From positions 1 to 64,000 of IMG/VR virus record IMGVR_UViG_3300031834_000001: 64,000 bases of DNA, one strand, 5' to 3'. The notes below the pieces were generated by a model that saw only the letters and a program-made list of their open reading frames with translations, ran no database searches and was not told the origin of the DNA. Positions 612-46,923 of the stretch are shown one piece after another. The DNA comes from a virus. Numbering within the stretch: the first letter of the stretch is position 1; the number at the start of each line of letters is the position of its first letter. Both the position numbers and the translations under genes were made by a program.

Positions 612-641
612 AAGGAACCTCCCTCTCCGCGCCTCAATGAC
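612..641 (+). promoter_or_regulatory. Recurrent bipartite promoter-like motif, copy 1
   Basis: AAGGAACCTC-N13-CAATGAC upstream of RBS GGAGG and the methyltransferase start. Confidence 0.65.
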
Positions 642-662
642 CAGGTAGCGGAGGTGGCCGGG

Positions 663-1751
663 ATGGTGACGCCATACTGGGAGGACCGCGAAGCGGGGTT
701 GACCATTTACTGCGGGGACTGCCTCACCATCCTCTCCTCCCTTCCCGCCGAGTCCGTCTCGCTCATCTTCGCGGACCCGCCCTACAATATTGGCAAGGCC
801 GCCTGGGACCGCATAGACGACTATCTCGGCTGGTCGGCCAGGTGGATAGCGGCGGCGTCCAGGGTGCTCAAGCCCAACGGGGCGTTTTGGGTAAGCCACA
901 CTAAACCGGAAGTCCTGATCGAGATAGGCCGCATGATCGAGCGGCACGGCCGGAAGCGGCTCAACTGGGTGACGTGGGACAAGTACAACGGAACGGGCGG
1001 CGGCAAACGGTACCTTCTGAACCGCACGAAGGTAGCTAACCCGAACGACAAGCGGCGGCTCGACGGTGACGCCGAATACCTCATCTACCACGCCGACGAA
1101 GGCGAGTGGGCGAACCAGACCGACCGGACGCGAGGGTTCATCTTCGAGCCGTTGAGGGCGTACCTAGACGGCGAGAGGGCGAGGGCGGGTGTGGGCAAGG
1201 TGGCCTGCAACGTGGTCTGCGGGTTTAGCGCGTCCCCGGGAGGCATGGCTTCCCGGCACTACTTCGGCCGTTCCCAATGGCAACTTCCGACCTGCGGACA
1301 CTATGAGGCCATGAGGCGACTCTTCAACGCCGGCGGGGGCGACTACCTCTCCCGAGATTACGAGCACCTGCGCCGGGAGTACGAGGACCTGCGCGAACAG
1401 TACCACCACCTCCGCTATACATTCAACAACCCCGGCAAGGCGTCCTCGGTGTGGCAGTTCGACCCGGCTCCCCGGAACGGCCACCCGACTCCGAAGCCCG
1501 TGGCCCTCCTCGAAAGAATCATCGCCACATGCACCGATCCCGGCGACCTCATCCTCGACCCCTTCCTCGGCAGCGGGACTACCCTCGTCGCCGCGAAAAT
1601 GCTGGGCCGTCGGGCTACTGGGGTGGAGGTTAGCGAGGAGTATTGTGCCCTCGCCGTCCGCAGGTTGGCTCAGGAGGTCCTGCCCTTTCACGTTCCCCGG
1701 GTGGCGAAGGCGACCCCGGCGGAGCAGCTCGCCTTCACCGCCCCAGGCTAG
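663..1751 (+). CDS. DNA methyltransferase, N4C/N6A beta class
   Basis: GDCL, DPPY catalytic motif, [20 protein letters not shown]-binding motif; YEHLR/YEDLR heptad insert. Confidence 0.95.
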
Positions 1752-1778
1752 CCCGCCCTTCCTTCGCCTCCCGAACTA

Positions 1779-2066
1779 GTGGCAGATGAGTGGCACAACT
1801 TTTTCCCCACGTTATCCGAAACGAACCCACGTTCGCCATTGGGGCAAGCGGCCCCAGACGCCCGTTCGCTACAAACCACCCTCTGTCTGCGGCTTCCCTG
1901 GCTGGTAGAAGAGACTGGTGGAGCCGATGGGGATCGAACCCACGGCCTCATGAATGCCATTCACGGGGCCGCCATTTCGAACGAACCCGGAATCCCTTGT
2001 ACCGCCTGGTTTTCAGGTCTCGCCGAACATACGTTCAGCCAAAAACAGAGGCAGAATGGTGGCACG
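1779..2066. other. attP attachment site (core plus arm-type sites)
   Basis: tRNA 3' half core at 1916-1965 flanked by GTGGCAGA-N3-GTGGCACA (1779-1797) and GAGGCAGA-N3-GTGGCACG (2048-2066). Confidence 0.75.
1916..1965 (-). tRNA. 3' half of tRNA-Ala(GGC), att core; not a complete tRNA
   Basis: Reverse complement CGTGAATGGCATTCATGAGGCCGTGGGTTCGATCCCCATCGGCTCCACCA has the GGC anticodon arm, T arm and CCA; D arm and 5' acceptor strand are absent. Confidence 0.88.
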
Positions 2067-2521
2067 GTTCAAAAGGGGTTCCGAGTTGACATAAGACCAC
2101 GGTAAAGGCTACAGAGCATTATACCACGTTGGAAGCGCACAATTTGTCGAAGGGTGTCGAGGACGGAGAAAGTGGGTCCGTGGCGGCCAACCCCCGGAAT
2201 CGACAGGGCCGAACTCGCCCACTGGCCCGGCTTGCCGCCCGCCCTCTCGCCCACGCTTCCGAATGGCGTTGCCGTCGCCACTCCCCGCTTCCACTACCTT
2301 ATCATTTTTCCGCACACCCTGATCGGGCAACTATCATTGGCCGATTTAGCAGGGACAACGCCGCAAAAGATGAGCACAAAGAGGAGTGCCTACCGGGGGT
2401 AATGCGAGGTTTCTTGAGTTGACGCAAGTCTGCCTCTGTGGGAAACTATCCACTAGATTACTAGGGACGACTGGGAGGTCTCCTTGGTTGCCAGAGTTTG
2501 TATGCTGAGGAGGAAAGCAGG

Positions 2522-5339: not shown

Positions 5340-5765
5340 CTATGGTTTCTTGGCTCTTATCAACTCCCGGCGGATCGTCTCCACTATGCTCTTCAGGGCC
5401 TCGGCGTCTAGCCCGGCGTCGGCGGCCTCCTTGGCGGCCAGGACGTAGGCTCCCGCTCCGGGGCCGACTACCCACTCCCTCACCTCGGGCGGATAGTGGG
5501 CCAGGTAGTCCTTGAGGTAAAGGCGCTTGCCCGAGTAGCCGGGTCTGTCGGTCAAGCCGAACAGATAATCAAGGGACACGTCCAGAATCTCGGCGAGCCG
5601 GACAAGCGTTTCCGTGTCGGGGTCCCTCTGGCCCTTCTCGTACCGGGTAATGGTCGGGCCGCCGAGGGACACCATTTTGCCGAGGTCCTTGGCGGTCAGA
5701 CCCCGCGATTCCCGCAACATCCGCAACCGTTCGCCGAACTCACCTAGTTCGCCCATCGGACTCAT
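5340..5765 (-). CDS. CI-like XRE repressor
   Basis: FGERLRMLRESRGLT...ITRYEKGQRDP...LAEILDVSLDYL; divergent from Cro. Confidence 0.93.
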   Translation of the reverse strand: MSPMGELGEFGERLRMLRESRGLTAKDLGKMVSLGGPTITRYEKGQRDPDTETLVRLAEILDVSLDYLFGLTDRPGYSGKRLYLKDYLAHYPPEVREWVVGPGAGAYVLAAKEAADAGLDAEALKSIVETIRRELIRAKKP

Positions 5766-5778
5766 CTTATCTCACCTA

Positions 5779-5879
5779 GTTCCTGCCGGGAATGAATTCG
5801 CCCCAGATGGCATCTCCCTCTTGACGTCGTTCCCGCCGGGAATGTATACTCGCATCAGAGGTAGTGCCTGGGAGGCATG
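5779..5879. promoter_or_regulatory. Lysis/lysogeny switch: operators plus sigma-A promoter
   Basis: GTTCC(T/C)GCCGGGAATG at 5779 and 5829; related CC-N5-GGCAT sites at 5802 and 5867; TTGACG(5821)-N18-TATACT(5845) brackets one operator. Confidence 0.8.
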
Positions 5880-5887
5880 TCAGAGAT

Positions 5888-8194: not shown

Positions 8195-8198
8195 GACT

Positions 8199-21004: not shown

Positions 21005-24000
21005 CCCCCGCCCTCTTCGCGATCATCATCGCCTTCCAACTCCTCCATATCGCCACGGACATCCTGGCCGCCCGGTCGCTCAGTCGGTCCACGGTCCTCT
21101 ATGCCCGCGCCAGACTCGACGGGAACGAGGTTGTCTGCGGTTGCCGGTTGGACTCGGAGGATGGGGTTCCACCTTGCCGCACGGATTGCCAGGTCGTCCG
21201 GGTCATCGTGGATGGGAGGCGGAAGCCGTGACCGTCTACGTCCGATCCATCGACCAGCATGTCTACGCCCGGACTAGTCACGCCCTGGTCCAATTCTCTC
21301 GCCACGTTGACTTGCCGCCCGGCGCGGATCCCGAAGCCGCAATGTGGGCCGACGTGGCCACGTCCTGCCCGCTGTCCAGGGAGAGGGCCGCATCCCGGTA
21401 TAACGCGACGTGGCAGGAGGCCAAGACGTACCTGGAGGGCCGCCACGGTTTGTACATCGTCTGCGACTCGGCCCTTATGACTTTCATGCTGCCCAACGAC
21501 CGCCCGCTGACCGTGCCGATCCTGGCCGCCGTGAGGGATAAACGGTCCGTGGTCGCCGTGCTGGCCCGCGACTACCTGGCCGACAAGGCGAGTCTGCTTC
21601 GCATCCGGGCGGGCGTGGCCGACAGGGAGGCCGAGGTTATCGAGGGTGACGCCAGGCGGACATGGCCCTGGCGACGCCGCAAGTTGTCCCTGGCCGCCGA
21701 GAGACGCCGTGGACGGGCTGAGGGGCTGAGGCGGGCCGTCGAGGATTTGGAGACGGTGGGAGACCGGGAGGGAGAGGTTAGCGTTGGCGACTGAGGACAC
21801 CTGGAACGAGCGCAGCCGGACCCTGCCCGCCGGGTTGACCTGCGCCCACTGTATGAGCATGGTCTTCTGCGCGGACAAGTTCGACCGGACGCCCGAGGAC
21901 GCCACCTGTGTTTGGGAGCCTGGGCGCTTCCGAGTAAGGGTGGAGTTACACCTGGAGGCCGTGGCGGGACTGGCGGCTTACCGGGAGGCGTTGGAAAACG
22001 TAGGGCGCCGCACGTGCGGCAACCGTTGGGATGCTGGTTGCGCTGCATGCTCCTCCGTCGGTAACAAGGTTCCGCAGGAGTGGTGCGCTGCCGTTGACGC
22101 CTTGAGGGATGCCCTCGCCTCCCCCGACCTCCTCGCCGCGGTCCGTCGCCTCCAGTCGGAATTGGCCGCCATGAGGGACCGGCGGTGCGAGACGTGCGGG
22201 CGATGGGCCAGCCTCGCCCACCTGTTCCACTTGAGGGGCAAGGGCGAGTGCGTCCGCACTAGCGGCGACGATGGGGAGTCGGTCCACCTGTACGGCCTCC
22301 CCCGGTACATGGCCGCCGACCATCCCGGTTGCTCCCACTGGATTGCCCGGCAAACCACGAAGGACGGTGAGACCCCATGACCACCCGTCCGCCACGCTCC
22401 CCCAGAAGGTGTCTGGGCTTCGGGCCGCACGAAGGGTCCTGCGAGAACACGGCGGGCACGCCCTGGACGCCCTACTGGTGCCCCCGGTGCGACACGTTGA
22501 GGCGGGAACACCTGGACCGCCAGTTCGAGGCGTTGGCGGCCGAGTTCGGACTTGAGGACAAGGAGGCGACGCCCCATGCCTGACACCCCGAGCGGACTAG
22601 TCGCCAGGTTGAGACTGGCCAAGAAAGCCATCGACGCGGCCCGAGACCTACGCAGCGCCGCACGGTGGCACGTGGCCGGCGTCGTCGGCGATGCGGAACT
22701 CATGGCGGAGGCCGCCAGGTGCGGCAGGAAGACCGCCGCCTTCGACAAGGAGGCGGGCCGGGATGACTAAGCCCTCCCGCTCTCCCCAACTCCCCCTCTC
22801 TTTCGTGCCCCCGACGCCAGCCGGGTCAGCCAGGCCGGGTAGGGGTAAGCGGCCGGGGAAGGGTGTCCTGAAGGAACCTCCCGTCGCGGATCAGCATTCC
22901 CAACCGGCGGAGACTCGGCCACCATGCTACCAACTGGCCGCCCAGGATGGGGTTAAGGAGTGCCGGGCCTGCAATGAGGACCAGGTCCGCCGGGTGAATG
23001 GGCGATGCTGCCCCTACGTCCGGGATGGCCGAGGAGTTTGGACGTGCCGGAAATGCAAGGTGGATGAGTGCGCCGAGAGGGGTTGCCCATGACGACCATC
23101 GACGCTCGGCCATTTTGCCCCTACGAGGTGGCCACGCCTGCCTGGCTGGCCGAGCATTGCCACGCCGCCCGGAAGGGTGTCTGCATCGGGTCACGCCACC
23201 TTCGCCGGGAGTGTTGGGCGGAGTGGCTCAGTCACCAGGATGCCCGGACGGGCCAGTTTCCATGCGACATCAAGGAGGGGTCACAGTGACAGCCGATCAC
23301 GTCTTCTGCATCCACCACATCGCCACCGAGGAGAACCCGGCGGGCACGGACTGCTCCGCCCACATGATTGAGGCCAGGGTGTTCGCCTGCCCCTACACGT
23401 CCATCGAGGATGCCAAGGCGGACAAGTGCCCGTGCGAGGACGCCGAGGAGTTCACCGGGGACAAGGAGGTTGACCATGGCCATCATTAAGCCCCTGAGCG
23501 ACCGCGAGCTCCAGGACATCGAGGCGACATGGATGGACCAGGTCATCCCGTCTTCGGTGCTCTCCAATTCCGTCATGTTCGCCACTCTTACCCGCTACCG
23601 CCTGGCCCTCCACCGAGCCACGGGGGACCTCTGCTGGGAGCCGGATGAGTGCCCGCAAGCCGTTTACAACTGGGCGGCCTCGCCATGCCGGGGCGGCTCA
23701 TGTCCCCTGCCCGCCGGGGCCGACCATGGCCCACAATCCCGTCTGTGTTGGGCCGAGTACTACCTGCGGGAGGAGGTGGGCGACGGTGGCTAAGCCCGAC
23801 TCAACCGCCGCGCCCCGCAAGCCCGACTGGGGCATCTTCGGTGGCCGCCTGTTGGCCTTTGACGCCAAGTCGGTCGGGGCGATCAATCCGTGGGAGGACG
23901 CCAGGGTTCTCGGCTCGGCCAAGGTGTCCGAGGATGGGACGCTTACCGTGACCATCCAGGCCGAGGGGTTACTCCTGGTGGGCGATGCCCTCGGGGAAGT

Positions 24001-24061: not shown

Positions 24062-24063
24062 CG

Positions 24064-31787: not shown

Positions 31788-32627
31788 ATGACTGACGCGG
31801 CGTTCGAGGCCCTACTAACTGAATCGCGCCCAATCCGTCGCCGTCTGTCGCGTCGGTTCTGGGTGCCCGGCATGGACCGCGAGGACATGGAGCAGATTCT
31901 GGCCCTCGCGGTCTGGCTGGCCATGGCGAACTTTGACCCGGCGCGATCCCCTCTCGGTTTTTACCTCCGAATGACCATGCTGCGGGCCGCCCAGAGCGTC
32001 GTCAAATCGGCATTTGCGGATGCCCGCCGGGCTCACGTCGGCATCCAGAGTCTTGACGAAATCCGGTCCGGCGAGGACGGCCATCTCCGCCGGGAGCCCT
32101 GGGCGCACGAATCCGGCTACCTCTCTCTGGAGGACGCCGACTGGCAGGAGGACCTCATCGCCGAGGCTCATCTGACCCGCCTGGAGCGCGAGTCGTTCCT
32201 GGGCATCCTCGGCAACCGCTACATCCCCGGCATCCTCAGCGAGATAGCCGCCGACCTCGGAGTCACGGCCGACCAGGTCGGCAATGCCTGGAGTCGGGCT
32301 CGCGGGAAACTCGGCGCGGTCGTGGCTCTCAGGGAACCCCATCGGATCCCGGAGGGCGTGAGAGTTCAAATCGGTTGGCGGCTTACGTCCGGCAAACTCT
32401 GCATGGACGGCCAATGGTACAAGCTTCGCAGGTGGAGCCGGGCCCAGCCGGACTGCTATGAGGCCGAGTCGGGCGGGCAAACGTGTCTCGTTAGGGCGGA
32501 CCGGGTAATCAGGATGGACGCGCGGGCTTGGGGCGGCCGGGCGGAACATGCGGTCGGCGTGGCTACCTGGCGCGGGCCGATGTGGGCGCAGGAGAGTTTC
32601 GGGTGGGAGGATGGCGAGGGTGGCTAA
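31788..32627 (+). CDS. SigH-like sigma-70 family factor with C-terminal extension
   Basis: Region 2-like PGMDREDMEQ...AMANFDPAR; region 4-like LTRLERESF...EIAADLGVTADQVGNAWSRARGKL. Confidence 0.82.
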   Translation: MTDAAFEALLTESRPIRRRLSRRFWVPGMDREDMEQILALAVWLAMANFDPARSPLGFYLRMTMLRAAQSVVKSAFADARRAHVGIQSLDEIRSGEDGHLRREPWAHESGYLSLEDADWQEDLIAEAHLTRLERESFLGILGNRYIPGILSEIAADLGVTADQVGNAWSRARGKLGAVVALREPHRIPEGVRVQIGWRLTSGKLCMDGQWYKLRRWSRAQPDCYEAESGGQTCLVRADRVIRMDARAWGGRAEHAVGVATWRGPMWAQESFGWEDGEGG

Positions 32628-35427: not shown

Positions 35428-35780
35428 CCACCCTATCCCCCAAGGAAATCCTGGCCCTGCGTGGTCGGGAGTTGGATGCCGAGATAGACCGGATGCTGGG
35501 CAGGGACCCCTGGGCGGCGGCGGCCAGCTCGCCCGGTCGGCGCGTCCTTGAGGTTGTCGGCTTCATGTTGTCGAAGGGCTTTTCATTCACCCTGACCGTC
35601 GCGCCCAGCCCCATGCCCATGTTCCGCGCCGCTTTCCAACGTAGCCAGCCCTACGAGTCGGACGCCGACTCCACCTATCCCGCCGATGCTGTCTGCTGGG
35701 CGGCGCTGCTGGCGTGGAGTGAGGAGGGTGAAGGAACCTCCGGCTCCCCGGCCCAACTACCCCACCCGAAAGGAGAGTGA
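35424..35780 (+). CDS. Phage ABA-sandwich-like domain protein (paralog 5)
   Basis: GRELDAEI...AVCWAALLA. Confidence 0.6.
   Translation: MTTLSPKEILALRGRELDAEIDRMLGRDPWAAAASSPGRRVLEVVGFMLSKGFSFTLTVAPSPMPMFRAAFQRSQPYESDADSTYPADAVCWAALLAWSEEGEGTSGSPAQLPHPKGE
35731..35760 (+). promoter_or_regulatory. Recurrent bipartite promoter-like motif
   Basis: AAGGAACCTC-N13-CAACTAC just upstream of RBS AAGGAG and the start at 35777. Confidence 0.65.
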
Positions 35781-38757: not shown

Positions 38758-39807
38758 TTGACCACCCTTACCGCTCCCCAACTGGTCTATCAAGCCGCCC
38801 TGGCTACCGGGTGGCCCGCTTCCGCCGTGGCCGACGTGCCCGACGGGACTTGCTGGCTCTGCCAGGGGGAGACCGGCGGCAGGGGTCGGCTGGTCGGCGG
38901 CATGTTGTCCGACACGTTCAACGACTCCAACCTGGCTCGCGGCGGGGGCCAGTCTCTCTGCCCGGCCTGCGTCTTCTGCCTGCAGGAAAGGGTTCGCGCC
39001 AAGGCGGGCGAGTCGGCCAAGTTGAGCCCGGATGAGCGAGCTGCCCATCGTCGAGCCATGAAGGACCCCGCCCAGGCGGCAAACGGCGTCCTCGGTCTCC
39101 GCATGTTCTCCTATCTTGCCACGTCCAACAGACTCCTCCTGCCCGACCGTTCCGAGTGGCGGGACATACTCCTCTCCCCTCCCGAGCCGCCCTGGACCGC
39201 CGCGATAGCCCTTTCCGGCCAGAAACACCTAGCCTTGCGCGGCAGGGTCAACTGGTCCAACCTGGCCCCCATCGTCCTTCTCGAAATCCAGCTTATCCAG
39301 TTCACCCCGGCCAACCTCGCCGCCGACCTGGCCATCATCGAGGACGGGATGACCGTGTTCTCCAAGACGGAACTGGAGACCGGAGATTACTCCATCCACC
39401 GGATAGGCCAGTTCGGACTCGACCGCTTCGAGGAACTGGAGGGACGCCTGGCGGCCATGCGTCTCCGGCGAAGCCAGTTTACCCTGGCCGTCTACGTGGC
39501 GAGGGAACCTCATGACTCCAGGTGTACTCGGCCCGTCCAACCTCGCCCGAACACCGGGGTATCCGTGCCCGCTTGCTTCCGCCAGAAGACCCCAACGGCC
39601 AAGGCGCAACAAGAAGTCTGGTTCGCCGACCCGGCCAACCGCGCCAAGTGGTCCATGCGGCCCGGCGCGTGGGAGTGTCACCCCGAGTGCCGGGTACTCC
39701 TGGCTCGGTCAGGCGGGCAGAAGGAACCTCGCCCGGCGGCTAGCAACTCCATGATAGCGAGGGAGGGTTGGGCCGATGGACTCTTCGGGGAGGCCAAGGT
39801 TCGCTAG
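38758..39807 (+). CDS. csf1: Type IV CRISPR-associated Csf1 (Cas8-like large subunit)
   Basis: CWLC...SDTFND...LCPACVFC Zn finger; LLSPPEPPW...SGQKH. Confidence 0.85.
   Translation: MTTLTAPQLVYQAALATGWPASAVADVPDGTCWLCQGETGGRGRLVGGMLSDTFNDSNLARGGGQSLCPACVFCLQERVRAKAGESAKLSPDERAAHRRAMKDPAQAANGVLGLRMFSYLATSNRLLLPDRSEWRDILLSPPEPPWTAAIALSGQKHLALRGRVNWSNLAPIVLLEIQLIQFTPANLAADLAIIEDGMTVFSKTELETGDYSIHRIGQFGLDRFEELEGRLAAMRLRRSQFTLAVYVAREPHDSRCTRPVQPRPNTGVSVPACFRQKTPTAKAQQEVWFADPANRAKWSMRPGAWECHPECRVLLARSGGQKEPRPAASNSMIAREGWADGLFGEAKVR
39721..39750 (+). promoter_or_regulatory. Recurrent bipartite promoter-like motif inside the csf1 3' end
   Basis: AAGGAACCTC-N13-CAACTCC upstream of RBS GGAGG and ATG 39776. 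Confidence 0.6.
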
Positions 39808-40903
39808 GCCGTTCTTCGTGACCCCGCACGCCGTGGACCAATTTCGCGCCAAGATAGCCGACCTCGCCCCGGCGGACGTGATAACCGAGGTCCAACGGAT
39901 GATGCAGGATAAGCGGCTGCCGCCAACCTGGACGCCCAAGGGGAGCCCGTCCGCCAAGGTTGCCTGTATCCTCCCCGTTGACGCCGAGTTGCGCGAGGGT
40001 GGCCTGACGCTTATCTATCTCGGGTGGCTCGGGAGCAACCCGGTGTATATTCCCACCCTGGCCCCCGACGGAGTTCATGGGGGCTGGCCGTCCGTGCCTA
40101 CCGTCATGGGCAAGGAGTCCAGGCTTCACAACGTTCTCGTCCGGGCGGCGGCGTGGAAGAAGCGGTGCGGCAGGTTCCCTCTGCGGCGATGGGTGGAGGA
40201 GGACGACCGCCTACTCGCGGCGCTAAGGGATGCCGGGTTCAGCATCCGGCAAGTGGCGTCCATCATGCGCCGGGGCCACCACACTGTCTGGCGGCACACT
40301 CGCCACCCACTGGATCGCCGACAAGACTGGCCCGCTGACGACGTCCAGGCCGCCGTGGCGCTAAGGGCGGGCGGCAAGTCCTGCCGGGAGGCCGGGCTCA
40401 TCCTGGGGCGCACATCGGGCGGCGTGGCCATGCGGCTCTACAGGTACCGCCGGGAACATCCGAGGGACAAGCGAGCCCGGACCACCGTGCCCGGCCCATG
40501 GCCGAAGGAGGACGTGACCCTCGCGGTAGCCATGCGGGCCGAGGGGAAGACGCTGGCCCGGATAGGCGAGGCCGTCCACCGGAGCCGGGCCGCCGTGAGT
40601 TGGCGGATTGTCCGGGAGAGCAGGAAGCCTCTAGCCCCCGAGGTTACCGGGCCGTGGACGGAGGCCGAGTTGGAGTTAGCCCACAACCTGCGGGCCAAGG
40701 GGAAATCGTGCCCCTGCATCGCTCGGAAACTCAAGCGGAGCGTGGGGGCCGTCTACCGCAAACTTGCCCTAATCCGCGAGAAGCGCCTGGCCGATCCGAG
40801 GGGGCGGGCCATCGCGGGGATGGTGGGCCGGATAATCAAGGTAGTCAGAAAGGAGGGCATCGAATGTCTACCGGAACCTTTCAGCCAGAAGAACGCTCCC
40901 TAA
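39776..40903 (+). CDS. Protein with four tandem Myb/GcrA-like HTH repeats
   Basis: W..ED-like...(L/M)R..G.(S/T)...R...V pattern repeated four times. Confidence 0.75.
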   Translation: MDSSGRPRFARPFFVTPHAVDQFRAKIADLAPADVITEVQRMMQDKRLPPTWTPKGSPSAKVACILPVDAELREGGLTLIYLGWLGSNPVYIPTLAPDGVHGGWPSVPTVMGKESRLHNVLVRAAAWKKRCGRFPLRRWVEEDDRLLAALRDAGFSIRQVASIMRRGHHTVWRHTRHPLDRRQDWPADDVQAAVALRAGGKSCREAGLILGRTSGGVAMRLYRYRREHPRDKRARTTVPGPWPKEDVTLAVAMRAEGKTLARIGEAVHRSRAAVSWRIVRESRKPLAPEVTGPWTEAELELAHNLRAKGKSCPCIARKLKRSVGAVYRKLALIREKRLADPRGRAIAGMVGRIIKVVRKEGIECLPEPFSQKNAP

Positions 40904-41388
40904 TTCACGGATTCTGGACGCGCCACGAAAGCCGGGCCATAGCGGCTTTGTTGGTCTACGGCATCTACCGCTCGCGAGACCAGGGCCGTTTCAAGGTCAC
41001 GCCCGACATGTGGGGCCGGATTGAGCGGGCGGTCAAATCCTGCGCCCTGAGCGCTCAGGACTTGGAGGAATTCATCGACCGCTTCAAGTCCAAGATGCAG
41101 TGTTCGACCATCCACCCCCGATACATGCGGTCCGACCTCGGCGTCGGCCAAACTCTTGTTGAGGACCGCAGGACCGGCGAAATCCTCGGTACCAGCGGCG
41201 ACCGCCGGGAATTCTGGGTGGAAATTCTGGAGGACGCCGACCACAAGGCCGCCCTGGACGCCCTGTACCGCCAGACAGGCGCGGTTGTCGCCTTGGTCCG
41301 TGACCGCCTGGAGCGCGAGAAACCCCTGGAAGCCATGATTGGAGAGGAGACGCGAAATGACGGCGACACCGACAACAAGGCCGAGTAG
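40864..41388 (+). CDS. Cas11-like small subunit of type IV-B
   Basis: About 175 aa, helical, between csf1 and csf2; ends LVRDRLEREK. Confidence 0.65.
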   Translation: MSTGTFQPEERSLIHGFWTRHESRAIAALLVYGIYRSRDQGRFKVTPDMWGRIERAVKSCALSAQDLEEFIDRFKSKMQCSTIHPRYMRSDLGVGQTLVEDRRTGEILGTSGDRREFWVEILEDADHKAALDALYRQTGAVVALVRDRLEREKPLEAMIGEETRNDGDTDNKAE

Positions 41389-42415
41389 TTCCTATAAAAC
41401 CTACTACTTGGAGGGCATCGTGACCCTCCTGTCCCCCCTGTCGCATATCGGGGAGAATCTCGGCACGACGACCCACTTTTCCCGGCAGGCCATCGTCGGC
41501 CCCGACGGGAAACGCGTGGAGTGCTTCGCCCATTCGGGCAACGGGTTCCGGGGTCACTTCCGGGACGATGGGGTGAAGCACCTCCTCCGCGCCCTGGGTA
41601 GCCCGAACCTGCCGCCCAAGCCGTTTCACCTGCTCTTCGGTGGCGGCACGATGACCGGGGAATTCGTGGTGGACATTGACCTCGCCCGGCGACTCCGGGA
41701 AGCCCTGCCTCTCCTATCTCTCTTCGGGGCCGCGACGGGCAATCACATCATGCCCGGCAAGTGGAACACGGGTATCCTGTGGCCAATCTGCGCCGAGACG
41801 CAACGGCTCCTCCCGGCCTATCTGCGGAACCCCGAGGCCCCGTCCTGCCGGACGTGGATAACCGAACTCAACTTCAGCAGAAAGGACGACGGGAAGGATG
41901 AGCGGCTAACCCGACACATGCTACCCGGCGCGACGGGCCAGTTGGCGTTAGGGGGAGCCGAGCCCACGCCGAAAAAGAGGGGCAAGGGCAAGCCTAGCGA
42001 CGACGGGGAGGCCGGGGACGAACCGGCCCAGCAGATGCGCTATACCGTCCAGGCCCTCGCGGCGGGCGGCGAACTCTTCCAACGCATCCACGTCCTCGAC
42101 GCCACCGAGTTGGAGTTCGGGGCTCTCATGTCCTGCTTCTCCGAGTGGTCCCAGGCCCCCTATCTGGGCGGCAACAACGCGAAGGGCCTGGGGCTCGTTG
42201 CGGGCGAGTGGACCTACCAGACCGGCGAGATGGACGAACCGGCCCCGCTAGTCTCCGCCGGGCCGGGGGAGTTCGCGCCGAAGAACGCGGGCAAGGAGGC
42301 CCTGGACCGCTACGACGCCTATCTCCTCGACGCCTACGAGAGGTACATTTCGGGCAACGCGCCCGAAATCAGGCAGGCCCTCGGGGTAAGCGGAGGGGTC
42401 CATGGAACCGCTTAG
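41357..42415 (+). CDS. csf2: Type IV Csf2 (Cas7-like RAMP backbone)
   Basis: TLLSPLSHIG, SGNGFRGHFRD, LFGGG, LSLFG, G-loop LGGNNAKGLG. Confidence 0.9.
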   Translation: MTATPTTRPSSSYKTYYLEGIVTLLSPLSHIGENLGTTTHFSRQAIVGPDGKRVECFAHSGNGFRGHFRDDGVKHLLRALGSPNLPPKPFHLLFGGGTMTGEFVVDIDLARRLREALPLLSLFGAATGNHIMPGKWNTGILWPICAETQRLLPAYLRNPEAPSCRTWITELNFSRKDDGKDERLTRHMLPGATGQLALGGAEPTPKKRGKGKPSDDGEAGDEPAQQMRYTVQALAAGGELFQRIHVLDATELEFGALMSCFSEWSQAPYLGGNNAKGLGLVAGEWTYQTGEMDEPAPLVSAGPGEFAPKNAGKEALDRYDAYLLDAYERYISGNAPEIRQALGVSGGVHGTA

Positions 42416-43088
42416 GGTGATCGCTACTCTCGAAACCGGCCAGGTGGCCACGTTCGACGGGAATCTCCCGCTCGATGGTATCATCGCGGCCGCCTGGATG
42501 CGCCGGTATCACCCGGATGCCTTCTGGACCGGCGCGCCGAACCGCATGGGCGAGGACTGGATTGAGCCTATCCTCCCCCTTGACCGGCGCGTGTCGGACG
42601 GGGAGTGGTACTGGGCTTCCTCGTTCGCCCGGTACCGCCAACTGTCCGAGGAGATCACCTACTGGCATAAGAGGTTCGACGACGACATGGAACACTTTCT
42701 CGACTTGGGCGGCCGGAGTGGTAGGATGAATGTGAAGTCGGGGCCATTTAAGAGTTACCGGATGCCCCTGGTCTACATGGTCACGCCGGAGCTAGTCTGG
42801 CACATCGTTGGCGACAGGGGGGAAGTGGCGAGCCTACTCGGCATGATACCCGCCGTCGGCAAGAAGCGCTCGGCCGGCTATGGTTTCGTGGCCTCCTGGG
42901 TGGTCGAACCCTGGCCGGTGGACCTCTCCTGCCATGATGAGCGCGGGAGACCGATGCGAGCCATTCCGACCAGGGACGGCCCGTCCGAATGTGGGGTCAG
43001 GCCGCCCTACTGGCATCCGGTGAACCGGGTTAGGTGCGAGATGCCTGCCCCGTGGGGAGGAACTGGGGAGTGGGAGAGACAGGGATAA
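42402..43088 (+). CDS. csf3: Type IV Csf3 (Cas5-like RAMP)
   Basis: LPLDGIIAAA, SGPFKSYRMP, VGKKRSAGYGFV, RPPYW. Confidence 0.9.
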   Translation: MEPLRVIATLETGQVATFDGNLPLDGIIAAAWMRRYHPDAFWTGAPNRMGEDWIEPILPLDRRVSDGEWYWASSFARYRQLSEEITYWHKRFDDDMEHFLDLGGRSGRMNVKSGPFKSYRMPLVYMVTPELVWHIVGDRGEVASLLGMIPAVGKKRSAGYGFVASWVVEPWPVDLSCHDERGRPMRAIPTRDGPSECGVRPPYWHPVNRVRCEMPAPWGGTGEWERQG

Positions 43089-43606
43089 TGTTTCCGTGCC
43101 TGGGGGTCAAGCTGGTTCCGGCGGACAAGGTAGTCTGCAACGGCTACAATCCCAACAAGGTGGCGCGGCGAGAGCTCGACCTGCTGGAACTCTCCATCAG
43201 GGAGGATGGGGTGACTCAGGCGCTCGTGGTCTACCATGATGTTGGGGCCGACAAGTACGTCATTGTGGACGGGTTCCACCGCTACGTCGTCCTGGTTCGC
43301 CTGGGGTGTGCCGAGATCCCGGTAGTCGTGATCGACAAGGACCTGAGAAACCGCATGGCGAGCACTGTCCGGCACAACCGGGCGCGGGGCAAGCACCAGG
43401 TGGACTTGGTGGCCGAGTTGGTCAAAGCGCTCCTCGCCAAGGGATGGGACGACGCGAGGATAGCGGAGCATCTCGGGATGAGCGCGGAGGAACTGCTGCG
43501 CCTGAAGCAGATCGTCGGTGCCGCCAAGTTGCTGGCTGGCACGGAGTATTCGGCGTCTTACGGGAGGGACGATGAGCCGGATGGGCAGGATTCATCTGAC
43601 AGATAA
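43088..43606 (+). CDS. IbrB-like ParB/Srx-domain protein
   Basis: NGYNPNKVA...SIREDG...IVDGFHRY...STVRHNRARGKH. Confidence 0.9.
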   Translation: MFPCLGVKLVPADKVVCNGYNPNKVARRELDLLELSIREDGVTQALVVYHDVGADKYVIVDGFHRYVVLVRLGCAEIPVVVIDKDLRNRMASTVRHNRARGKHQVDLVAELVKALLAKGWDDARIAEHLGMSAEELLRLKQIVGAAKLLAGTEYSASYGRDDEPDGQDSSDR

Positions 43607-44354
43607 CCACGATCAACTGGACCTGCCGAGAGGACGCGAGGCGGTCTGGCTCCATTCCGCAAAGGACCGCAGGCCGCGGGCGGAGCGGTGCGTCACGCTC
43701 CCGGAGTTCCTGGATGCCCCCTGGGAGAGCGTCAAGGGTGCGGACCTCCTCGTCGTTGTCGGTCTCGTTTCCCGCCTTTGCACTCCCGGCAACAGGGTGC
43801 GCCTGGGCCAGTATCTCACCGACCCCTGGAATGGCCCCGAGCGCGTCTCGGTAGACGACAGGTTGTTCATCGTCGATCCGTGGCGCATGTGGTGGCACTT
43901 TGGTTGCGTAGGCATCGACTTCGGGGGATGCTCCGTGAGTTATACCTTGGAGACTCGTTGGAACGGTTTCGTGGTGGGGATGAGGGAGAACCCCTGCACC
44001 CCTTCTGAACTCGACCGCTACGGCCTTGGCGTCATTGACGCCCGCGGAGCCTTCAAGTTCGAGCCGATCAACATTCACGTCGAACCCATGCCGGAGGAGG
44101 TTCGCGAATGCTACGCCGCCGAGAAAGAGGTCGCCTTCAACGAGGAGGCGACTCCGGCGGCGATCATCAAGCGCCTGGCCGCCTTCGCTTCATCGGTCTA
44201 CCCGTCCCGGTCGGTGCCTTCGTTTAGGGACATGTTCCGCAACCGCCACCTTGAGGTCCGGGCCACAGACCTTGGCGTGGACCGCTTCCTGGCGAACCAG
44301 ATTTCTCTCCGGGTTGAGTTGACCAACTACGCCGCCGAGAGCTTCGCCGTATGA
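43572..44354 (+). CDS. Hypothetical protein between the IbrB-like and IbrA-like genes
   Basis: 260 aa ORF overlapping both neighbours. Confidence 0.75.
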   Translation: MSRMGRIHLTDNHDQLDLPRGREAVWLHSAKDRRPRAERCVTLPEFLDAPWESVKGADLLVVVGLVSRLCTPGNRVRLGQYLTDPWNGPERVSVDDRLFIVDPWRMWWHFGCVGIDFGGCSVSYTLETRWNGFVVGMRENPCTPSELDRYGLGVIDARGAFKFEPINIHVEPMPEEVRECYAAEKEVAFNEEATPAAIIKRLAAFASSVYPSRSVPSFRDMFRNRHLEVRATDLGVDRFLANQISLRVELTNYAAESFAV

Positions 44355-45406
44355 ATGTCTACGAGGGGGCCGTAAACCGAATTAGGTTCATCTTCGCCGA
44401 GTTCCCGCGTGTGGTCGTCAGCGTCTCCGGCGGGAAGGACAGCACGTGCCTATTCTACCTGGCGGCGGCAGAGGCGGAGCGGCAAGGGCGGCGCTTCGAG
44501 GTGTTCTTTCTGGACCAGGAAGCGGAGTATCAGAGTTCCGTCGAGATCATTGAGGGGATGATGCGGCACCCGCTAGCGATCCCGCGTTGGTACCAGGTGC
44601 CCATCCATATGACCAACGCTACGAGTCACGCCGAACTCTTCCTCCACGCCTGGGGTGAGGGTGAAACTTGGATACGCGAGAAGAGCCCGCTGGCGATTCA
44701 CGGCATCCCCGAACCATACCCGAAGCGGTTCTACGACTTCTTCCCCTGGTTTGAGAGTCTGGACCGGGAGCCGACGGCGCACCTGGTCGGCCTGCGGCAG
44801 TTCGAGAGCCTAAACCGTCACCGGGCGGTCTACAAGGCCAATGGGTACAAGCACTATAAGTGGAGCACCCGATGCGCTCCAGGAAGCGCGAGTTACCGCT
44901 TCTATCCGATTTTCGACTGGCAATTCCGCGACGTGTGGAAGTGCATCGCCGACAACAGTGTCCCCTACAACAAACTCTATGACCGCATGTACGCCCGGAG
45001 CGGCGCGAACATGAGCACCATGCGCGTGTCGAACCTCATCCACGAGCGGGCATTCCGGGCGCTGGCGCAGGTGCAGGAGTTCGAGCCGGACACCTACGAC
45101 AAATTGGTCGCCCGGTTGGGCGGGGTGCATTGCGCCGCGCTCTACGCCGAGGACCGCTACATCTTTAGCGCCGACCGCCTGCCACCCGCGTTCAAGTCGT
45201 GGCGGGAGTACCGCGACTACCTATTGGCGACGACGCCGTCAAGCACGCAAAGCCGCTACCTCAAGCGCTTCGCCAAGCAGGACGCCGACGAGTCTGCCTG
45301 TCAGCACCAGGTCAAGCAGTTACTCCTCAACGACTGGGAAGGCAATCTTCCGATCACGCGGCAGAAGAGGCGGAAGGTCCGGGAGCAATGGTGGGACCTC
45401 CTATGA
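44351..45406 (+). CDS. IbrA-like PAPS-reductase-family PP-loop protein
   Basis: VSVSGGKDS, FLDQEAEY, VGLRQFESLNR, YPIFDW. Confidence 0.9.
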   Translation: MNVYEGAVNRIRFIFAEFPRVVVSVSGGKDSTCLFYLAAAEAERQGRRFEVFFLDQEAEYQSSVEIIEGMMRHPLAIPRWYQVPIHMTNATSHAELFLHAWGEGETWIREKSPLAIHGIPEPYPKRFYDFFPWFESLDREPTAHLVGLRQFESLNRHRAVYKANGYKHYKWSTRCAPGSASYRFYPIFDWQFRDVWKCIADNSVPYNKLYDRMYARSGANMSTMRVSNLIHERAFRALAQVQEFEPDTYDKLVARLGGVHCAALYAEDRYIFSADRLPPAFKSWREYRDYLLATTPSSTQSRYLKRFAKQDADESACQHQVKQLLLNDWEGNLPITRQKRRKVREQWWDLL

Positions 45407-45957
45407 CCGATATTATCATCAGGGCCTGCCGGGAGCGGCAAGCATGGGTGGACTATCTTCTCGACCGGCTACCGGGGGCCACGGTTGTCTACGATACCAC
45501 GCGCAACGCGATGAACACCTTCCTCGAAGCCCTGCGAGTTGCCGGCGACCGCCCGGTTATCCACATGGAGGACGACGTGCTCCTCGCGAAGGGGTTCGTC
45601 TGCAAGGCCGAGTCGGTGATAGGCGAACGTCCCGAGACGGCCATTCAGTTCTTCTCGATGCGCAAGCGGGACATCCAGGTTGGGTCTAGGTGGGAACCCG
45701 GAGGGACCTTCCTAGCGGGCCTATGCTTCTACTTGCCGGCCGGGATGTCCGAGCGGCTCCTGCGCTTCGACTGGCCCCGTCGGGAGGAGCATCCCACCGG
45801 CCTAGACTTGCTGGTCGCCGATTTCCTGCGGGCCAACAAGGAGAGGTACTGGCTACATGTCCCCAATCTGGCGCAACATCGGTTTGGCAAGAGTCTGATC
45901 GATTCCCGCCGCTCGCGCTATCGGCAGTCGTTGACCTTCGAGGACCCCGACGAATGA
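45403..45957 (+). CDS. Putative GT-A glycosyltransferase
   Basis: VIHMEDDV (DxD-like), DLLVADFL, PNLAQHR. Confidence 0.6.
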   Translation: MTDIIIRACRERQAWVDYLLDRLPGATVVYDTTRNAMNTFLEALRVAGDRPVIHMEDDVLLAKGFVCKAESVIGERPETAIQFFSMRKRDIQVGSRWEPGGTFLAGLCFYLPAGMSERLLRFDWPRREEHPTGLDLLVADFLRANKERYWLHVPNLAQHRFGKSLIDSRRSRYRQSLTFEDPDE

Positions 45958-46703
45958 CGGAGGACGAAATGGAGTTGTATCACCTCCATGCCCGGCTTCC
46001 CCGCGTCCGCCGTTTGACCGCGCAGGCCATGTCCGACCTTCGCGACTGGCGGGCCAACTGTTCCCGCCCTTACGTCGCTTGGTCCACCGGGAAGGACTCG
46101 ACCCTCTGCTTGTGGCTCGCTCTCCAGGTGGACCCGAATGTCGAGGCTATCTACCTTGACGCCGAGTCTTCCCTCCCGGAGACAGAGGAGATGCTCGACA
46201 CCCTGCCCGCCCAGTGGGGCTTCCGCCTCCGAGTAGTCAAGACACGGCCGCTTCTCGACATGCTGGCCCAGTATGGCTTGGACGACCCGCATATCGAGGA
46301 GCGGACGATGCAGGCAACCGTCCGGGAACCGATTAAACGGCTGAGACGCGAGGGATACGACGGCGTTGTCGTGGGCATTCGCGCCGATGAGAGCCGGGGC
46401 AGAATGAAAGGCATTAACCGCATGGGGCGACTTTTCTGGAGCAAGTCGTCCGGGATGTTGACCTGCTGGCCTGTGGCCCGATGGACAAGCCGGGATGTCT
46501 GGGCTTACACGGTGGCCAACGGGCTCCCCTATAACCGGGCCTACGACAAGCTCCTGGGTTGGCCACTTGAGGAGCGGCGAGTCTCCTACTGGGCGGGCGA
46601 GACCAACAGGGAATGCGGCCGCTACGTCTGGCTCCGGCGGTACCACCCCGACCTTTATGCCCAACTGGTTGCCCGACTCCCGCGAGTAGGCAACTTTGTC
46701 TGA
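45954..46703 (+). CDS. cysH: CysH-like PAPS-reductase-family protein of type IV-B
   Basis: VAWSTGKDS, VGIRADESRGR, PVARWTSRDVWAY. Confidence 0.88.
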   Translation: MTEDEMELYHLHARLPRVRRLTAQAMSDLRDWRANCSRPYVAWSTGKDSTLCLWLALQVDPNVEAIYLDAESSLPETEEMLDTLPAQWGFRLRVVKTRPLLDMLAQYGLDDPHIEERTMQATVREPIKRLRREGYDGVVVGIRADESRGRMKGINRMGRLFWSKSSGMLTCWPVARWTSRDVWAYTVANGLPYNRAYDKLLGWPLEERRVSYWAGETNRECGRYVWLRRYHPDLYAQLVARLPRVGNFV

Positions 46704-46721
46704 CCTGAACCCGCCGCCCTA

Positions 46722-46923
46722 AAGGAACCTCCCCGTTCCCGCCTCAACTACCACCCAGACCCTGAACGCTAGGAGGCCGACTCGCCGCCGTGTCCGACTC
46801 TCCATCCCCCGTCACCCTGCTTACCGGAGACTGCCTGGTGGCCAAGAGTAGGCAGAAGGAACCTCCCTTGTCCGCTCTCAACTACCAGATAGACCCTGAA
46901 AGCGAGGAAGCCCAGTCGCCGTG
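46722..46923 (+). repeat. Two imperfect ~70 bp direct repeats (promoter motif, leader, RBS, GTG)
   Basis: AAGGAACCTCCC-N10-TCAACTACCA-N3-AGACCCTGAA-N4-AGGA...GCCGTG at 46722 and 46856. Confidence 0.85.

What the first reader, a model, noticed from the sequence alone, without database searches (positions are those of the whole stretch)
612..46885. Dispersed AAGGAACCTC-N13-CAACTAC motif: candidate regulon of the phage SigH-like sigma factor
Seen: AAGGAACCTC followed after exactly 13 nt by CAA(C/T) at 612, 35731, 39721, 46722 and 46856. Looser copies lie at 22871 (N14-CATTCC) and 63608 (GGAACCTC-N12-CAACTAC). The five clean copies each sit just upstream of an RBS and start codon. Established: Bacillus sigma-H promoters are AGGA(A/T)-rich at -35 with GAAT at similar spacing. 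Inference: the sigma factor at 31788 reads a shifted version of this promoter and co-regulates the methyltransferase at 663 and the HTH-cas11-csf2-csf3-ibr-cysH block.
Basis: partly seen in the sequence, partly recalled or inferred. Interest (0 to 1): 0.78.

Follow-up and report, generated by a model that had tools for sequence, protein, structure and literature searches.

The report
Phage sigma factor's private promoters
An uncultured 93-kb temperate phage carries six near-identical two-box promoter-like signals in front of its DNA-modification, Cas-like and late gene blocks, most likely read by the one SigH/ECF-like sigma factor it encodes; this is the familiar phage trick of re-aiming the host RNA polymerase, in a new lineage.

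Summary
AAGGAACCTC-N13-CAAY occurs at all five stated coordinates, plus a sixth copy on the minus strand at genome position 91742, outside the window. A weight matrix scores the six at 35-49 bits. The next hit (22871) scores 18, and shuffled genomes reach at most 15. Each site lies 26-45 nt upstream of an RBS and a co-directional start, and none has a sigma-A -10 hexamer. The geometry, AGGA-N18-CAAY, equals published SigH promoters (AGGA-N17/18-GAAT).

The phage encodes one sigma70-family protein (31788-32627). Its sigma2 and sigma4 domains are modelled confidently, its best fold match is B. subtilis SigH, and it has a conserved C-terminal beta extension. It falls below curated family cut-offs.

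A mosaic relative from a metagenome (L199) keeps both boxes while the spacer and leader diverged, though it was found through those boxes.

The link between sigma and motif remains an inference; a host sigma is the main rival.

This is a new member of a known kind. Earlier unchecked notes of this scan describe similar SigH-type phage promoters on other DNA.

The parts
612..642 (+). Promoter-like site P1: AAGGAACCTC-N13-CAATGACC. It lies in a gap, 28 nt from box 2 to the ATG at 663.
   Evidence: (48.3 bits); a terminator-like hairpin lies upstream at 445-469
445..469 (+). Strong terminator-like hairpin (10-bp stem, 9 GC pairs, T-rich tail) that isolates P1 as its own transcription unit
663..1751 (+). 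N6/N4 DNA methyltransferase, the gene driven by P1
   Evidence: Pfam N6_N4_Mtase E 2e-44
31788..32627 (+). The phage's only sigma70-family gene (279 aa): sigma2 domain (residues 1-85), linker, sigma4 domain (117-182), and a conserved small beta-rich C-terminal extension (192-243)
35731..35761 (+). Promoter-like site P2: AAGGAACCTC-N13-CAACTACC. It lies inside the 3' end of ORF 35424-35780, 26 nt from box 2 to the ATG at 35780.
   Evidence: (39.6 bits); identical in the relative contig L191
35780..36310 (+). First gene of the P2 unit (176 aa, no family hit). The unit runs through small ORFs to the csf1-like ORF 38758-39807.
39721..39751 (+). Promoter-like site P3: AAGGAACCTC-N13-CAACTCCA. It lies inside the 3' tail of ORF 38758-39807, 32 nt from box 2 to the ATG at 39776.
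   Evidence: (35.4 bits)
39776..40903 (+). Multi-HTH protein (375 aa), first gene of the P3 unit
   Evidence: Pfam HTH_23 and HTH_38, weak Sigma70_r4_2; phrog_323 transcriptional regulator
41357..43088 (+). Csf2 (Cas7)-like and Csf3 (Cas5)-like genes of a type IV Cas-like module within the P3 unit. They are followed by a ParB_N protein and PAPS-reductase-like genes up to 46703.
   Evidence: TIGR03115 E 3.9e-9 and TIGR03116 E 1.6e-15, both below curated cut-offs
46722..46752 (+). Promoter-like site P4: AAGGAACCTC-N13-CAACTACC, in a gap 18 nt after the stop of the last PAPS-reductase-like gene
   Evidence: 47.3 bits; the boxes are kept in relative L199 while the spacer (8/13) and leader (7/18) diverged
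46790..46924 (+). A 44-aa remnant ORF with a methyltransferase-like N-terminus (LLTGDCL) that reads through P5. Relative L199 has a 403-aa ORF at this position.
46856..46886 (+). Promoter-like site P5, a tandem copy of P4 lying 134 bp downstream, 42 nt from box 2 to the GTG at 46921
   Evidence: downstream identity 0.73 with P4; 48.9 bits
46921..47136 (+). First gene after the tandem promoters. A + strand block follows, leading to HNH (51061), TerS (52229), TerL (52568), portal, protease and capsid, with no convincing + strand terminator in between.
22871..22880 (+). Orphan exact copy of box 1 without box 2. It is marginal and probably non-functional.
   Evidence: (18.3 bits)

Best explanation
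The six AAGGAACCTC-N13-CAAY(N)AC sites are promoters of a phage-specific class. Box 1 is an extended -35 element (AGGAAC core). Box 2 is a -10 element whose AA core sits exactly where SigH-type sigmas read GAAT. Transcription would start a few bases past box 2, giving short leaders of about 15-35 nt that carry the RBS. That gene lies in the long rightward operon downstream of the CI/Cro switch, has no copy of the motif in front of it, and would therefore be made first from host sigma-A promoters. The sigma then switches on five transcription units: the DNA methyltransferase (663); the unit starting at 35780; the multi-HTH, type IV-B Cas-like, ParB and PAPS-reductase block (39776-46703); the block behind the tandem promoters that leads into packaging and virion genes; and a leftward DUF1828 operon at 91.7 kb. 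What is shown: the motif, its placement, its SigH-like geometry, and the sigma fold of the protein. What is inferred: promoter activity, the start sites, the pairing of sigma with motif, and the timing.
For: The motif forms a discrete class well above chance. All six sites are co-directional with an RBS and a start 26-45 nt downstream, and none has a TANNNT hexamer that could serve sigma-A. Box 1 is identical in 15 of 15 pairwise comparisons, while upstream flanks are about 30% identical and spacers 15-77%. P1 follows a strong terminator. No sigma70-type signal exceeds the shuffle expectation across 27.6-47.5 kb. The geometry AGGA-N18-CAAY equals published SigH promoters (PMC12456013; PMC4754846), with 7 of 9 positions matched in the -35 element. 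The protein at 31788 gave 104 HMMER hits, and of the 40 aligned, 38 carry Sigma70_r2 and 30 carry r4_2. Its homolog profile hits PDB sigma-H 3mzy at 1e-36. TIGR02937 matches at E 3e-7. The AF2 model has confident sigma2 and sigma4 domains, and the top Foldseek hit is B. subtilis SigH at 1.3e-6, with every other hit a sigma factor. It is the only sigma70-family ORF in the genome. Mosaic relative L199 keeps box 1 (10/10) and box 2 (8/8) while the spacer is 8/13 and the leader 7/18. Published work says promoters of phage-encoded sigmas are typically highly conserved and low in copy number (PMC4331800).
Against: There are no transcription data. The sigma-motif link rests on co-occurrence in one genome plus a family-level match of geometry. 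The protein scores below every curated cut-off (Sigma70_r2 22.0 vs 24 bits; TIGR02937 30.2 vs 42.9). The only relative with a sigma homolog and enough sequence (G001, 30% identity) shows no equivalent motif. L199 was found by searching for exact boxes, so their conservation there is partly due to ascertainment. Several copies are related by duplication, which reduces the number of independent sites to about four. The host is unknown, so a host SigH-like or ECF sigma with this specificity cannot be excluded. Whether the tandem promoters really serve the virion genes 5-30 kb downstream is not shown.
Confidence: 0.6

Rival explanations
1. The sites are real promoters but are read by a host alternative sigma factor (a host SigH-type or ECF-type sigma). 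The phage sigma would then have other, unrecognised targets or act on host genes.
For: The geometry is that of cellular SigH promoters, and GGAAC at -35 is also typical of ECF promoters (own knowledge). LexA boxes, a CI/Cro switch and atlas neighbours in Bacillota are compatible with a host that has SigH. Phage sigma factors that act on host regulons are documented (PMC9429907).
Against: All six sites have C, never G, at the first -10 position, and four of six have C instead of T. The canonical pattern AGGA-N17/18-GAAT occurs three times in the genome and never upstream of a start. A 10-nt invariant -35 box is much more stringent than cellular SigH sites and is typical of a private phage specificity (PMC4331800). 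The phage keeps a sigma gene just upstream of the promoter-bearing region.
Confidence: 0.2
2. The motif is the operator of a phage DNA-binding regulator, for example the multi-HTH protein at 39776, which is itself behind a copy. It would activate or repress transcription from other promoters.
For: The 39776 protein has several HTH domains. Phage late activators that bind upstream of terS are well known, such as the RinA/Ltr families (PMC3152322, PMC3753634).
Against: The motif is bipartite, with fixed 13-nt spacing and asymmetric boxes. It is not a palindrome or a direct repeat as expected of HTH dimers. No sigma-A-type -10 lies between the motif and the RBS at any site. Its distance to the start codons fits a core promoter rather than an upstream activator site.
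Confidence: 0.08
3. The copies are merely a dispersed repeat spread by duplication or recombination (a mobile cassette end or recombination hotspot) with no regulatory role.
For: The units at 612 and 46722 share about 66 nt (score 58 against a shuffle maximum of 34). Sites 46722 and 46856 are a tandem duplication flanking a gene remnant. Sites 612 and 91742 share the spacer and the leader.
Against: Sites 35731 and 39721 share nothing with the others except the two boxes (spacer identity 0.15-0.6, flanks about 0.3) and sit inside unrelated coding 3' ends. All six have the same orientation and distance to a start codon. In L199 the boxes persist while the sequence between and after them diverged.
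Confidence: 0.05
4. The motif acts at the RNA level, for example as an anti-Shine-Dalgarno sequence (CCUCC) that pairs with the downstream RBS, or as a processing site.
For: At 612 and 91742 the predicted fold pairs AACCUCC with the GGAGG of the RBS.
Against: Folding z-scores are -1.3 to +1.2 and there is no common structure among the six. The fixed spacing to box 2 and the variable distance to the RBS are not explained by pairing.
Confidence: 0.02

Closest known systems
SigH (Spo0H)-dependent promoters and SigH of Bacillota
   Same: The -35 core is AGGA(A), the distance to the -10 core is the same (AGGA-N17/18-GAAT; RMAGGRWWW-N11-12-RRMGAAW), and the AA core of the -10 is kept. The sigma has the two-domain sigma2+sigma4 architecture, and its best fold hit is B. 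subtilis SigH.
   Different: The -10 reads CAAY, with C in 6 of 6 sites where SigH has G. The -35 is extended to an invariant 10-mer (AAGGAACCTC) in which CC replaces WW. The protein gives no hit to SigH equivalog models, has about 20% identity to SigH, and carries a roughly 100-aa C-terminal beta extension that SigH lacks.
Phage phiEco32 gp36 and Salmonella phage 7-11 sigma factors and their promoters (Guzina & Djordjevic 2015, PMC4331800)
   Same: A phage-encoded, ECF-like minimal sigma, with a small number of highly conserved private promoters upstream of middle and late genes, inferred from the genome sequence.
   Different: Those are lytic podoviruses of enterobacteria with an unrelated promoter sequence, and phiEco32 has been verified experimentally. 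Here the phage is temperate-style, has 65% GC, and lacks both a known host and experiments.
SigN (ZpdN) of the prophage-like plasmid pBS32 of B. subtilis (PMC6751061)
   Same: A sigma encoded on a mobile element, only weakly similar to ECF sigmas, that directs a regulon located on its own element. That element also uses LexA control.
   Different: SigN is autoregulated from a SigN-dependent promoter and is directly LexA-repressed. Here no motif copy precedes the sigma gene, and the LexA boxes lie elsewhere.
SPO1 gp28 and gp33/34, and T4 gp55: classic phage sigma cascades
   Same: Temporal switching by replacement of the host sigma on the host core polymerase.
   Different: They have different sigma subfamilies and promoter sequences and belong to large lytic phages. 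This comparison rests on my own knowledge plus PMC13401047 (abstract seen).
Ltr superfamily late activators (RinA, ArpU and others) of Gram-positive temperate phages (PMC3152322, PMC3753634)
   Same: A single phage factor turns on the late operon from a site upstream of terS in temperate siphoviruses.
   Different: Those are described as activators binding one promoter region. Here a full sigma2+sigma4 protein is paired with six dispersed core-promoter-like sites that also cover non-late genes.

Membership tests
sigma70-family sigma factor, two-domain (group 4 / SigH-like) type | Sigma region 2 domain | tested here: met
   Pfam Sigma70_r2 at residues 12-70, E 1.4e-4, though at 22.0 bits it is below the gathering score of 24. 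The AF2 model has pLDDT above 90 for residues 1-85, and all top Foldseek hits are sigma factors.
sigma70-family sigma factor, two-domain (group 4 / SigH-like) type | Sigma region 4 helix-turn-helix domain | tested here: met
   The alignment to CnrH spans both domains. TIGR02937 covers residues 5-175. The model has pLDDT 85-97 for residues 117-182. Pfam Sigma70_r4_2 alone is only E 0.014.
sigma70-family sigma factor, two-domain (group 4 / SigH-like) type | Score above the curated family cut-off | tested here: not met
   TIGR02937 scores 30.2 bits against a cut-off of 42.9.
sigma70-family sigma factor, two-domain (group 4 / SigH-like) type | Binds core RNA polymerase and directs promoter-specific initiation | not testable with these tools
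   Needs in vitro transcription or in vivo reporters.
SigH (Spo0H) equivalog | Match to the SigH equivalog models (TIGR02859, NF006145-8) | tested here: not met
   The phage protein gives no hit at E <= 0.01. Only its distant relatives P0004-P0008 hit these models, far below cut-off.
SigH (Spo0H) equivalog | Closest structural or profile neighbour is SigH | tested here: inconclusive
   Top Foldseek hit is 9a4r_A (B. subtilis SigH model) at E 1.3e-6. The homolog profile's best PDB hit is 3mzy sigma-H at 1e-36, but ECF sigmas follow closely.
SigH-type promoter (RMAGGRWWW-N11-12-RRMGAAW) | -35 element RMAGGRWWW | tested here: met
   Seven of nine positions match in all six sites (R-A-A-G-G-A-A). 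The two W positions are CC.
SigH-type promoter (RMAGGRWWW-N11-12-RRMGAAW) | Spacing between the -35 and -10 cores | tested here: met
   AGGA-N18-CAA in 6 of 6 sites. This equals the 17-18 nt spacer of PMC12456013 and the N12 variant of PMC4754846.
SigH-type promoter (RMAGGRWWW-N11-12-RRMGAAW) | -10 element GAAT/GAAW | tested here: not met
   The sites read CAAC (4) or CAAT (2). G is replaced by C in all six, and only the AA core is kept.
ECF-type promoter (GGAAC -35, about 16-17 nt, CGT-containing -10; consensus from my own knowledge) | GGAAC at -35 with 16-17 nt to the -10 | tested here: met
   GGAAC-N16-CAAY in all six sites.
ECF-type promoter (GGAAC -35, about 16-17 nt, CGT-containing -10; consensus from my own knowledge) | -10 element of the CGT type | tested here: not met
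   The -10 box is CAAYNAC with no CGT.
Private promoter class of a phage-encoded sigma | Few, highly conserved copies upstream of phage genes, co-directional, lacking a host sigma-A promoter | tested here: met
   the criterion is as described in PMC4331800.
Private promoter class of a phage-encoded sigma | Transcription start sites downstream of box 2, dependent on the phage sigma | not testable with these tools
   No transcriptome or biochemical data are available.
Private promoter class of a phage-encoded sigma | Motif and sigma co-vary or co-occur in related phages | tested here: inconclusive
   Relatives L191 and L199 keep the boxes, but the contigs are too short to show a sigma gene and were found through the boxes. 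G001, with a 30%-identical sigma, shows no equivalent motif.

The most novel reading that the evidence does not exclude
The phage sigma belongs to a small, undescribed clade of SigH/ECF-like sigmas with a conserved C-terminal small beta-barrel domain. With a specificity insulated from host SigH (C instead of G in the -10, and a 10-nt -35), it places a phage-borne array-less type IV-B Cas-like effector and DNA-modification genes (methyltransferase, ParB/PAPS-reductase module) in one regulon with the late genes. This would make a Cas-like module part of a sigma-timed phage developmental programme. The extra domain might contribute to promoter recognition or to control of the sigma.
Probability: 0.25. 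Interest if true: 0.6.

Novelty: new member of a known kind. Interest (0 to 1): 0.45.

Why it matters
If correct, the finding gives a complete and directly testable transcription map for an orphan temperate phage lineage: host sigma-A promoters under CI/Cro and LexA control first, then one phage sigma and six private promoters. It also gives a sequence-defined specificity for a very divergent SigH/ECF-like sigma, which could serve as an orthogonal sigma/promoter pair. Finally, it indicates when and how a phage-borne type IV-B Cas-like module and DNA-modification genes are expressed, a question that is open for type IV-B systems. The principle itself, a phage sigma re-aiming the host polymerase, is textbook, so the value lies in the new specificity and the content of the regulon rather than in a new mechanism.

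Tried and rejected
1. The scan of viral contigs with a pattern of 14 specified bases gave only single, chance-level hits.

2. Close relatives of the sigma were absent from IMG/VR, from the 5.8-billion-protein index, which returned only the protein itself, and from cultured phages. TerL relatives reach only 43% identity on short contigs.

3. De novo motif searches in G001, the only sizeable relative with a sigma homolog, found nothing equivalent. Its top two-box pair lies inside genes. Its CCTAGCACCACC repeat is an unrelated intercistronic element.

4. The genome-wide 6+4 dyad scan and raw 10-mer counts do not single out the motif, because they are dominated by coding periodicity.

5. The competing two-box family CGTTGTTCGCGCC-N10-AGGAC turned out to be protein repeats inside gene 60243-63395.

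6. GCCTAGC enrichment in gaps is explained by TAG stop codons.

7. Host identification through the tRNA-Ala(GGC) 3' half failed. The 31-nt core matches Binatia, Myxococcota, Bdellovibrionales and a Firmicutes MAG equally, with no extension of the match.

8. The RNA-structure reading was rejected.

9. No anti-sigma factor was recognisable next to the sigma gene.

10. The C-terminal domain gives only weak matches to small beta-barrels of Tudor/SH3/KOW type, Z <= 4.8.

Full report
CONTEXT. The window is the first 64 kb of a 92,858-bp IMG/VR virus record with 65% GC and a 31-bp terminal repeat. Almost all genes lie on the + strand. The genome has a CI-like repressor (5340-5756, -) and a Cro-like HTH gene (5888-6103, +) flanking a sigma70-like promoter at 5821-5850. 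It has four LexA (Cheo-type) boxes, all in gaps, and a tRNA-Ala(GGC) 3' half that looks like attP. A long early region is followed by TerS, TerL, portal, protease and capsid from 52.2 kb. It is therefore a temperate-style siphovirus-like genome. Its TerL is at most 43-44% identical to any catalogued phage, so the lineage is an orphan and the host is unknown.

THE OBSERVATION. AAGGAACCTC followed after exactly 13 nt by CAA(C/T) is present at 612, 35731, 39721, 46722 and 46856. A sixth copy lies on the - strand at genome position 91742, outside the window. The consensus is R-AAGGAACCTC-N13-CAAY-N-AC.

SIGNIFICANCE. The 10-mer alone is not exceptional by count or by observed/expected ratio, and a blind 6+4 dyad scan is swamped by coding periodicity. 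The two-box structure is exceptional. Six of the seven copies of the 10-mer carry CAA at +13, a rare triplet in this genome. In an unbiased anchored two-box search the motif ties for first place, and the only comparable family is a protein repeat inside the 1067-aa gene. A 35-column weight matrix separates the six sites (35-49 bits) from everything else: 22871 scores 18.3, nothing else exceeds 12, and the maxima of 20 Markov genomes are 8-15. Leave-one-out scores are 16-41.

PLACEMENT. Every site is co-directional with an SD-like sequence and a start codon 26-45 nt after the start of box 2. With my approximate gene map, about 1.8% of positions would meet this criterion by chance. Four sites are in gaps. 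P1 follows a strong terminator-like hairpin at 445-469. P4 starts 18 nt after a stop codon. P2 (35731) and P3 (39721) lie inside the last 50-90 nt of the upstream ORFs, which corrects the impression that all sites are intergenic. No TANNNT hexamer usable by a sigma-A holoenzyme lies between box 2 and the RBS at any site. The 27.6-47.5 kb stretch has no sigma70-type signal above the shuffle expectation.

INDEPENDENCE OF THE COPIES. Box 1 is identical in all 15 pairs, while upstream flanks are about 30% identical and spacers 15-77%. P4 and P5 are a tandem duplication, with 73% identity in the leader. P1 and the 91742 site share the spacer and the leader. P1 and P4 share about 66 nt (local score 58 against a shuffle maximum of 34). 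Between P4 and P5 lies a 44-aa ORF with a methyltransferase-like LLTGDCL N-terminus that reads through P5. Promoter cassettes have therefore been copied, and the number of independent contexts is about four. P2 and P3 share only the two boxes with the rest.

COMPARATIVE EVIDENCE. A metagenome scan with AAGGAACCTC-N13-CAACTACC found 14 contigs. Two of them, from one sample, are mosaic relatives of this phage. L191 carries the P2 region virtually unchanged. L199 carries the P4 region with the following identities: upstream coding sequence 86%, box 1 10/10, spacer 8/13, box 2 8/8, the 18-nt leader 7/18, RBS to start 22/22. This is the footprint expected of two functional boxes. One caveat applies: the contig was found through exact boxes, so their identity is partly ascertained, and the informative part is how much the sequence around them has changed. 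In L199 the single promoter precedes a 403-aa ORF whose N-terminus has methyltransferase motifs (GDCL...DAPY; BLASTP E 9e-5 against the 663 enzyme, no Pfam hit). Our phage keeps only the stump of that ORF.

WHAT KIND OF PROMOTER. Published SigH promoters have AGGA at -35 and GAAT at -10 with a 17-18 nt spacer (PMC12456013). In full, the consensus is RMAGGRWWW-N11-12-RRMGAAW (PMC4754846). The phage sites read R-A-AGG-A-A-CC, then 15 nt, then CAAY. That matches 7 of 9 positions in the -35 element, has the spacing of the N12 variant, and keeps the AA core of the -10. The first -10 base is C instead of G in all six sites, and the fourth is mostly C instead of T. The same sequence can be read as GGAAC-N16-CAAC, an ECF-like -35 and spacing without the ECF-type -10 (the ECF consensus is from my own knowledge). 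The canonical pattern AGGA-N17/18-GAAT occurs three times in the genome and never upstream of a start.

THE SIGMA FACTOR. ORF 31788-32627 (279 aa) has an RBS-preceded ATG, and the same 279-aa protein is on record.
- Family models: it hits Pfam Sigma70_r2 below threshold (E 1.4e-4), TIGR02937 at E 3e-7 (30 bits against a cut-off of 42.9), and the ECF sigma CnrH across both domains at E 0.014.
- Homologs: exhaustive HMMER found 104 relatives. Of the 40 aligned, 38 carry Sigma70_r2 and 30 carry r4_2. Their profile hits PDB 3mzy 'sigma-H' at 1e-36, followed by ECF and other sigmas.
- Structure: AlphaFold models a confident sigma2 domain (1-85), a disordered linker and a confident sigma4 domain (117-182). 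Foldseek's best hit is a B. subtilis SigH model at 1.3e-6, and all other hits are sigma factors.
- C-terminal extension: a roughly 100-aa extension is conserved in the four closest relatives (27-30% identity). It is predicted as a small beta domain that matches Tudor/SH3/KOW-type barrels only weakly.
- Uniqueness and neighbours: it is the only sigma70-family ORF in the genome. No motif copy precedes it, and no anti-sigma is recognisable next to it.
- Classification: it is not a SigH equivalog. 'SigH/ECF-like two-domain sigma' is the defensible label.

THE REGULON. The sites head the following units:
- the N6/N4 DNA methyltransferase;
- a unit of unknown small genes from 35780 up to the csf1-like ORF;
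- the multi-HTH protein, then Csf2- and Csf3-like proteins (E 4e-9 and 1.6e-15, both sub-threshold), a ParB_N protein and PAPS-reductase-like genes;
- the tandem pair ahead of a + strand block that runs, without a convincing + strand terminator, into HNH, TerS, TerL, portal, protease and capsid;
- a leftward operon starting with a DUF1828 protein.

MODEL AND RIVALS. The most likely model (0.6) is as follows. After induction or infection, host sigma-A transcribes the early rightward operon, which includes the sigma gene. The phage sigma then redirects core polymerase to the six private promoters, switching on DNA-modification and Cas-like functions and the late block.
- Main rival (0.2): a host SigH- or ECF-type sigma reads the sites. 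The invariant C in the -10, the very stringent -35 and the absence of canonical SigH sites argue against it, but the unknown host prevents exclusion.
- A regulator operator (0.08) does not fit the asymmetric, fixed-spacing, core-promoter-like anatomy.
- A functionless dispersed repeat (0.05) does not fit sites P2 and P3 or the L199 footprint.
- An RNA element (0.02) is not supported by folding.

NOVELTY. Phage-encoded sigmas with a few highly conserved private promoters are well known: phiEco32 and 7-11 (PMC4331800), SPO1, T4, and SigN of pBS32 (PMC6751061). Surveys of phage sigmas exist (PMC9429907). I found no paper describing a phage SigH-like sigma with AGGA-N18-CAAY promoters, but the library does not hold the whole literature. 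Earlier unchecked notes of this scan report similar SigH-type phage promoters on other DNA (e1-5840498, e1-5336954). I therefore class this as a new member of a known kind. Its points of interest are the altered -10, the extended sigma clade, and a regulon that includes a type IV-B Cas-like module.

LIMITS. There is no transcription evidence and no host. Comparative data come from only two short relative contigs.

Noticed in passing
window 1822-1835 and 2024-2037; genome 78304 and 82458 (outside the window): Four LexA (Cheo-type, CGAAC-N4-GTTCG) boxes with 0-1 mismatch, all in gaps. The one at 2024 lies about 50 nt upstream of a TTGACA. This suggests SOS-controlled sigma-A promoters and a host with a Gram-positive-type SOS box.
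   Followed up: partly
window 1914-1960 (-): The 3' half of a tRNA-Ala(GGC) (anticodon arm, T arm, acceptor, CCA), which looks like an attP core. Its 31-nt core is identical in MAGs of Binatia, Myxococcota, Bdellovibrionales and one Firmicutes bacterium, with no further extension of the match, so it does not identify the host.
   Followed up: yes
window 5340-6103: Divergent CI-like (HTH_3, - strand) and Cro-like (HTH_31, + strand) genes around a sigma70-like promoter (TTGACG-18-TATACT at 5821-5850). This is a lambda-style immunity switch.
   Followed up: partly
window 46790-46924 and L199:392-1603: The 44-aa ORF between the tandem promoters is the remnant of a methyltransferase-like gene that a metagenomic relative still has as a 403-aa ORF. 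The deletion junction coincides with the second promoter copy, which suggests recombination between promoter cassettes.
   Followed up: yes
window 41357-46703 and 49977-51041: Csf2- and Csf3-like genes (type IV Cas7 and Cas5, sub-threshold NCBIfam hits) are followed by a ParB_N protein and two PAPS-reductase-like genes. A third PAPS-reductase-like gene lies at 49977. No CRISPR array was seen by the repeat tools I ran.
   Followed up: partly
window 61643-62510 (inside gene 60243-63395): Four exact copies of GGCGCGAACAAC with conserved flanks, spaced 195-336 nt apart. They are internal protein repeats of the 1067-aa structural protein, not a regulatory motif.
   Followed up: yes
window 32325-32624 (sigma residues 180-279) and P0003-P0006: A roughly 100-aa C-terminal extension conserved in a small clade of viral or metagenomic sigma-like proteins. 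It is predicted as a small beta-barrel (pLDDT about 64) with only weak Tudor/SH3/KOW-like matches (Z <= 4.8).
   Followed up: partly
G001 (IMGVR_UViG_3300032053_000139) 7150-8195, - strand: Three to four copies of CCTAGCACCACCGCCCG just after stop codons, each followed about 50 nt later by an RBS and a start. This is an intercistronic repeat in the 46-kb phage that encodes the closest sigma relative, and it is unrelated to the motif studied here.
   Followed up: no
genome 91332-91691 (-), outside the window (L006:1117-1476): The gene behind the sixth promoter copy encodes a DUF1828 protein (Pfam E 7.5e-17). It heads a four-gene leftward operon, one of the few stretches transcribed leftward.
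   Followed up: partly
window 51061-52206 and 52229-52564: An HNH endonuclease gene lies immediately upstream of the small terminase subunit, the arrangement common in HNH-dependent cos packaging.
   Followed up: no
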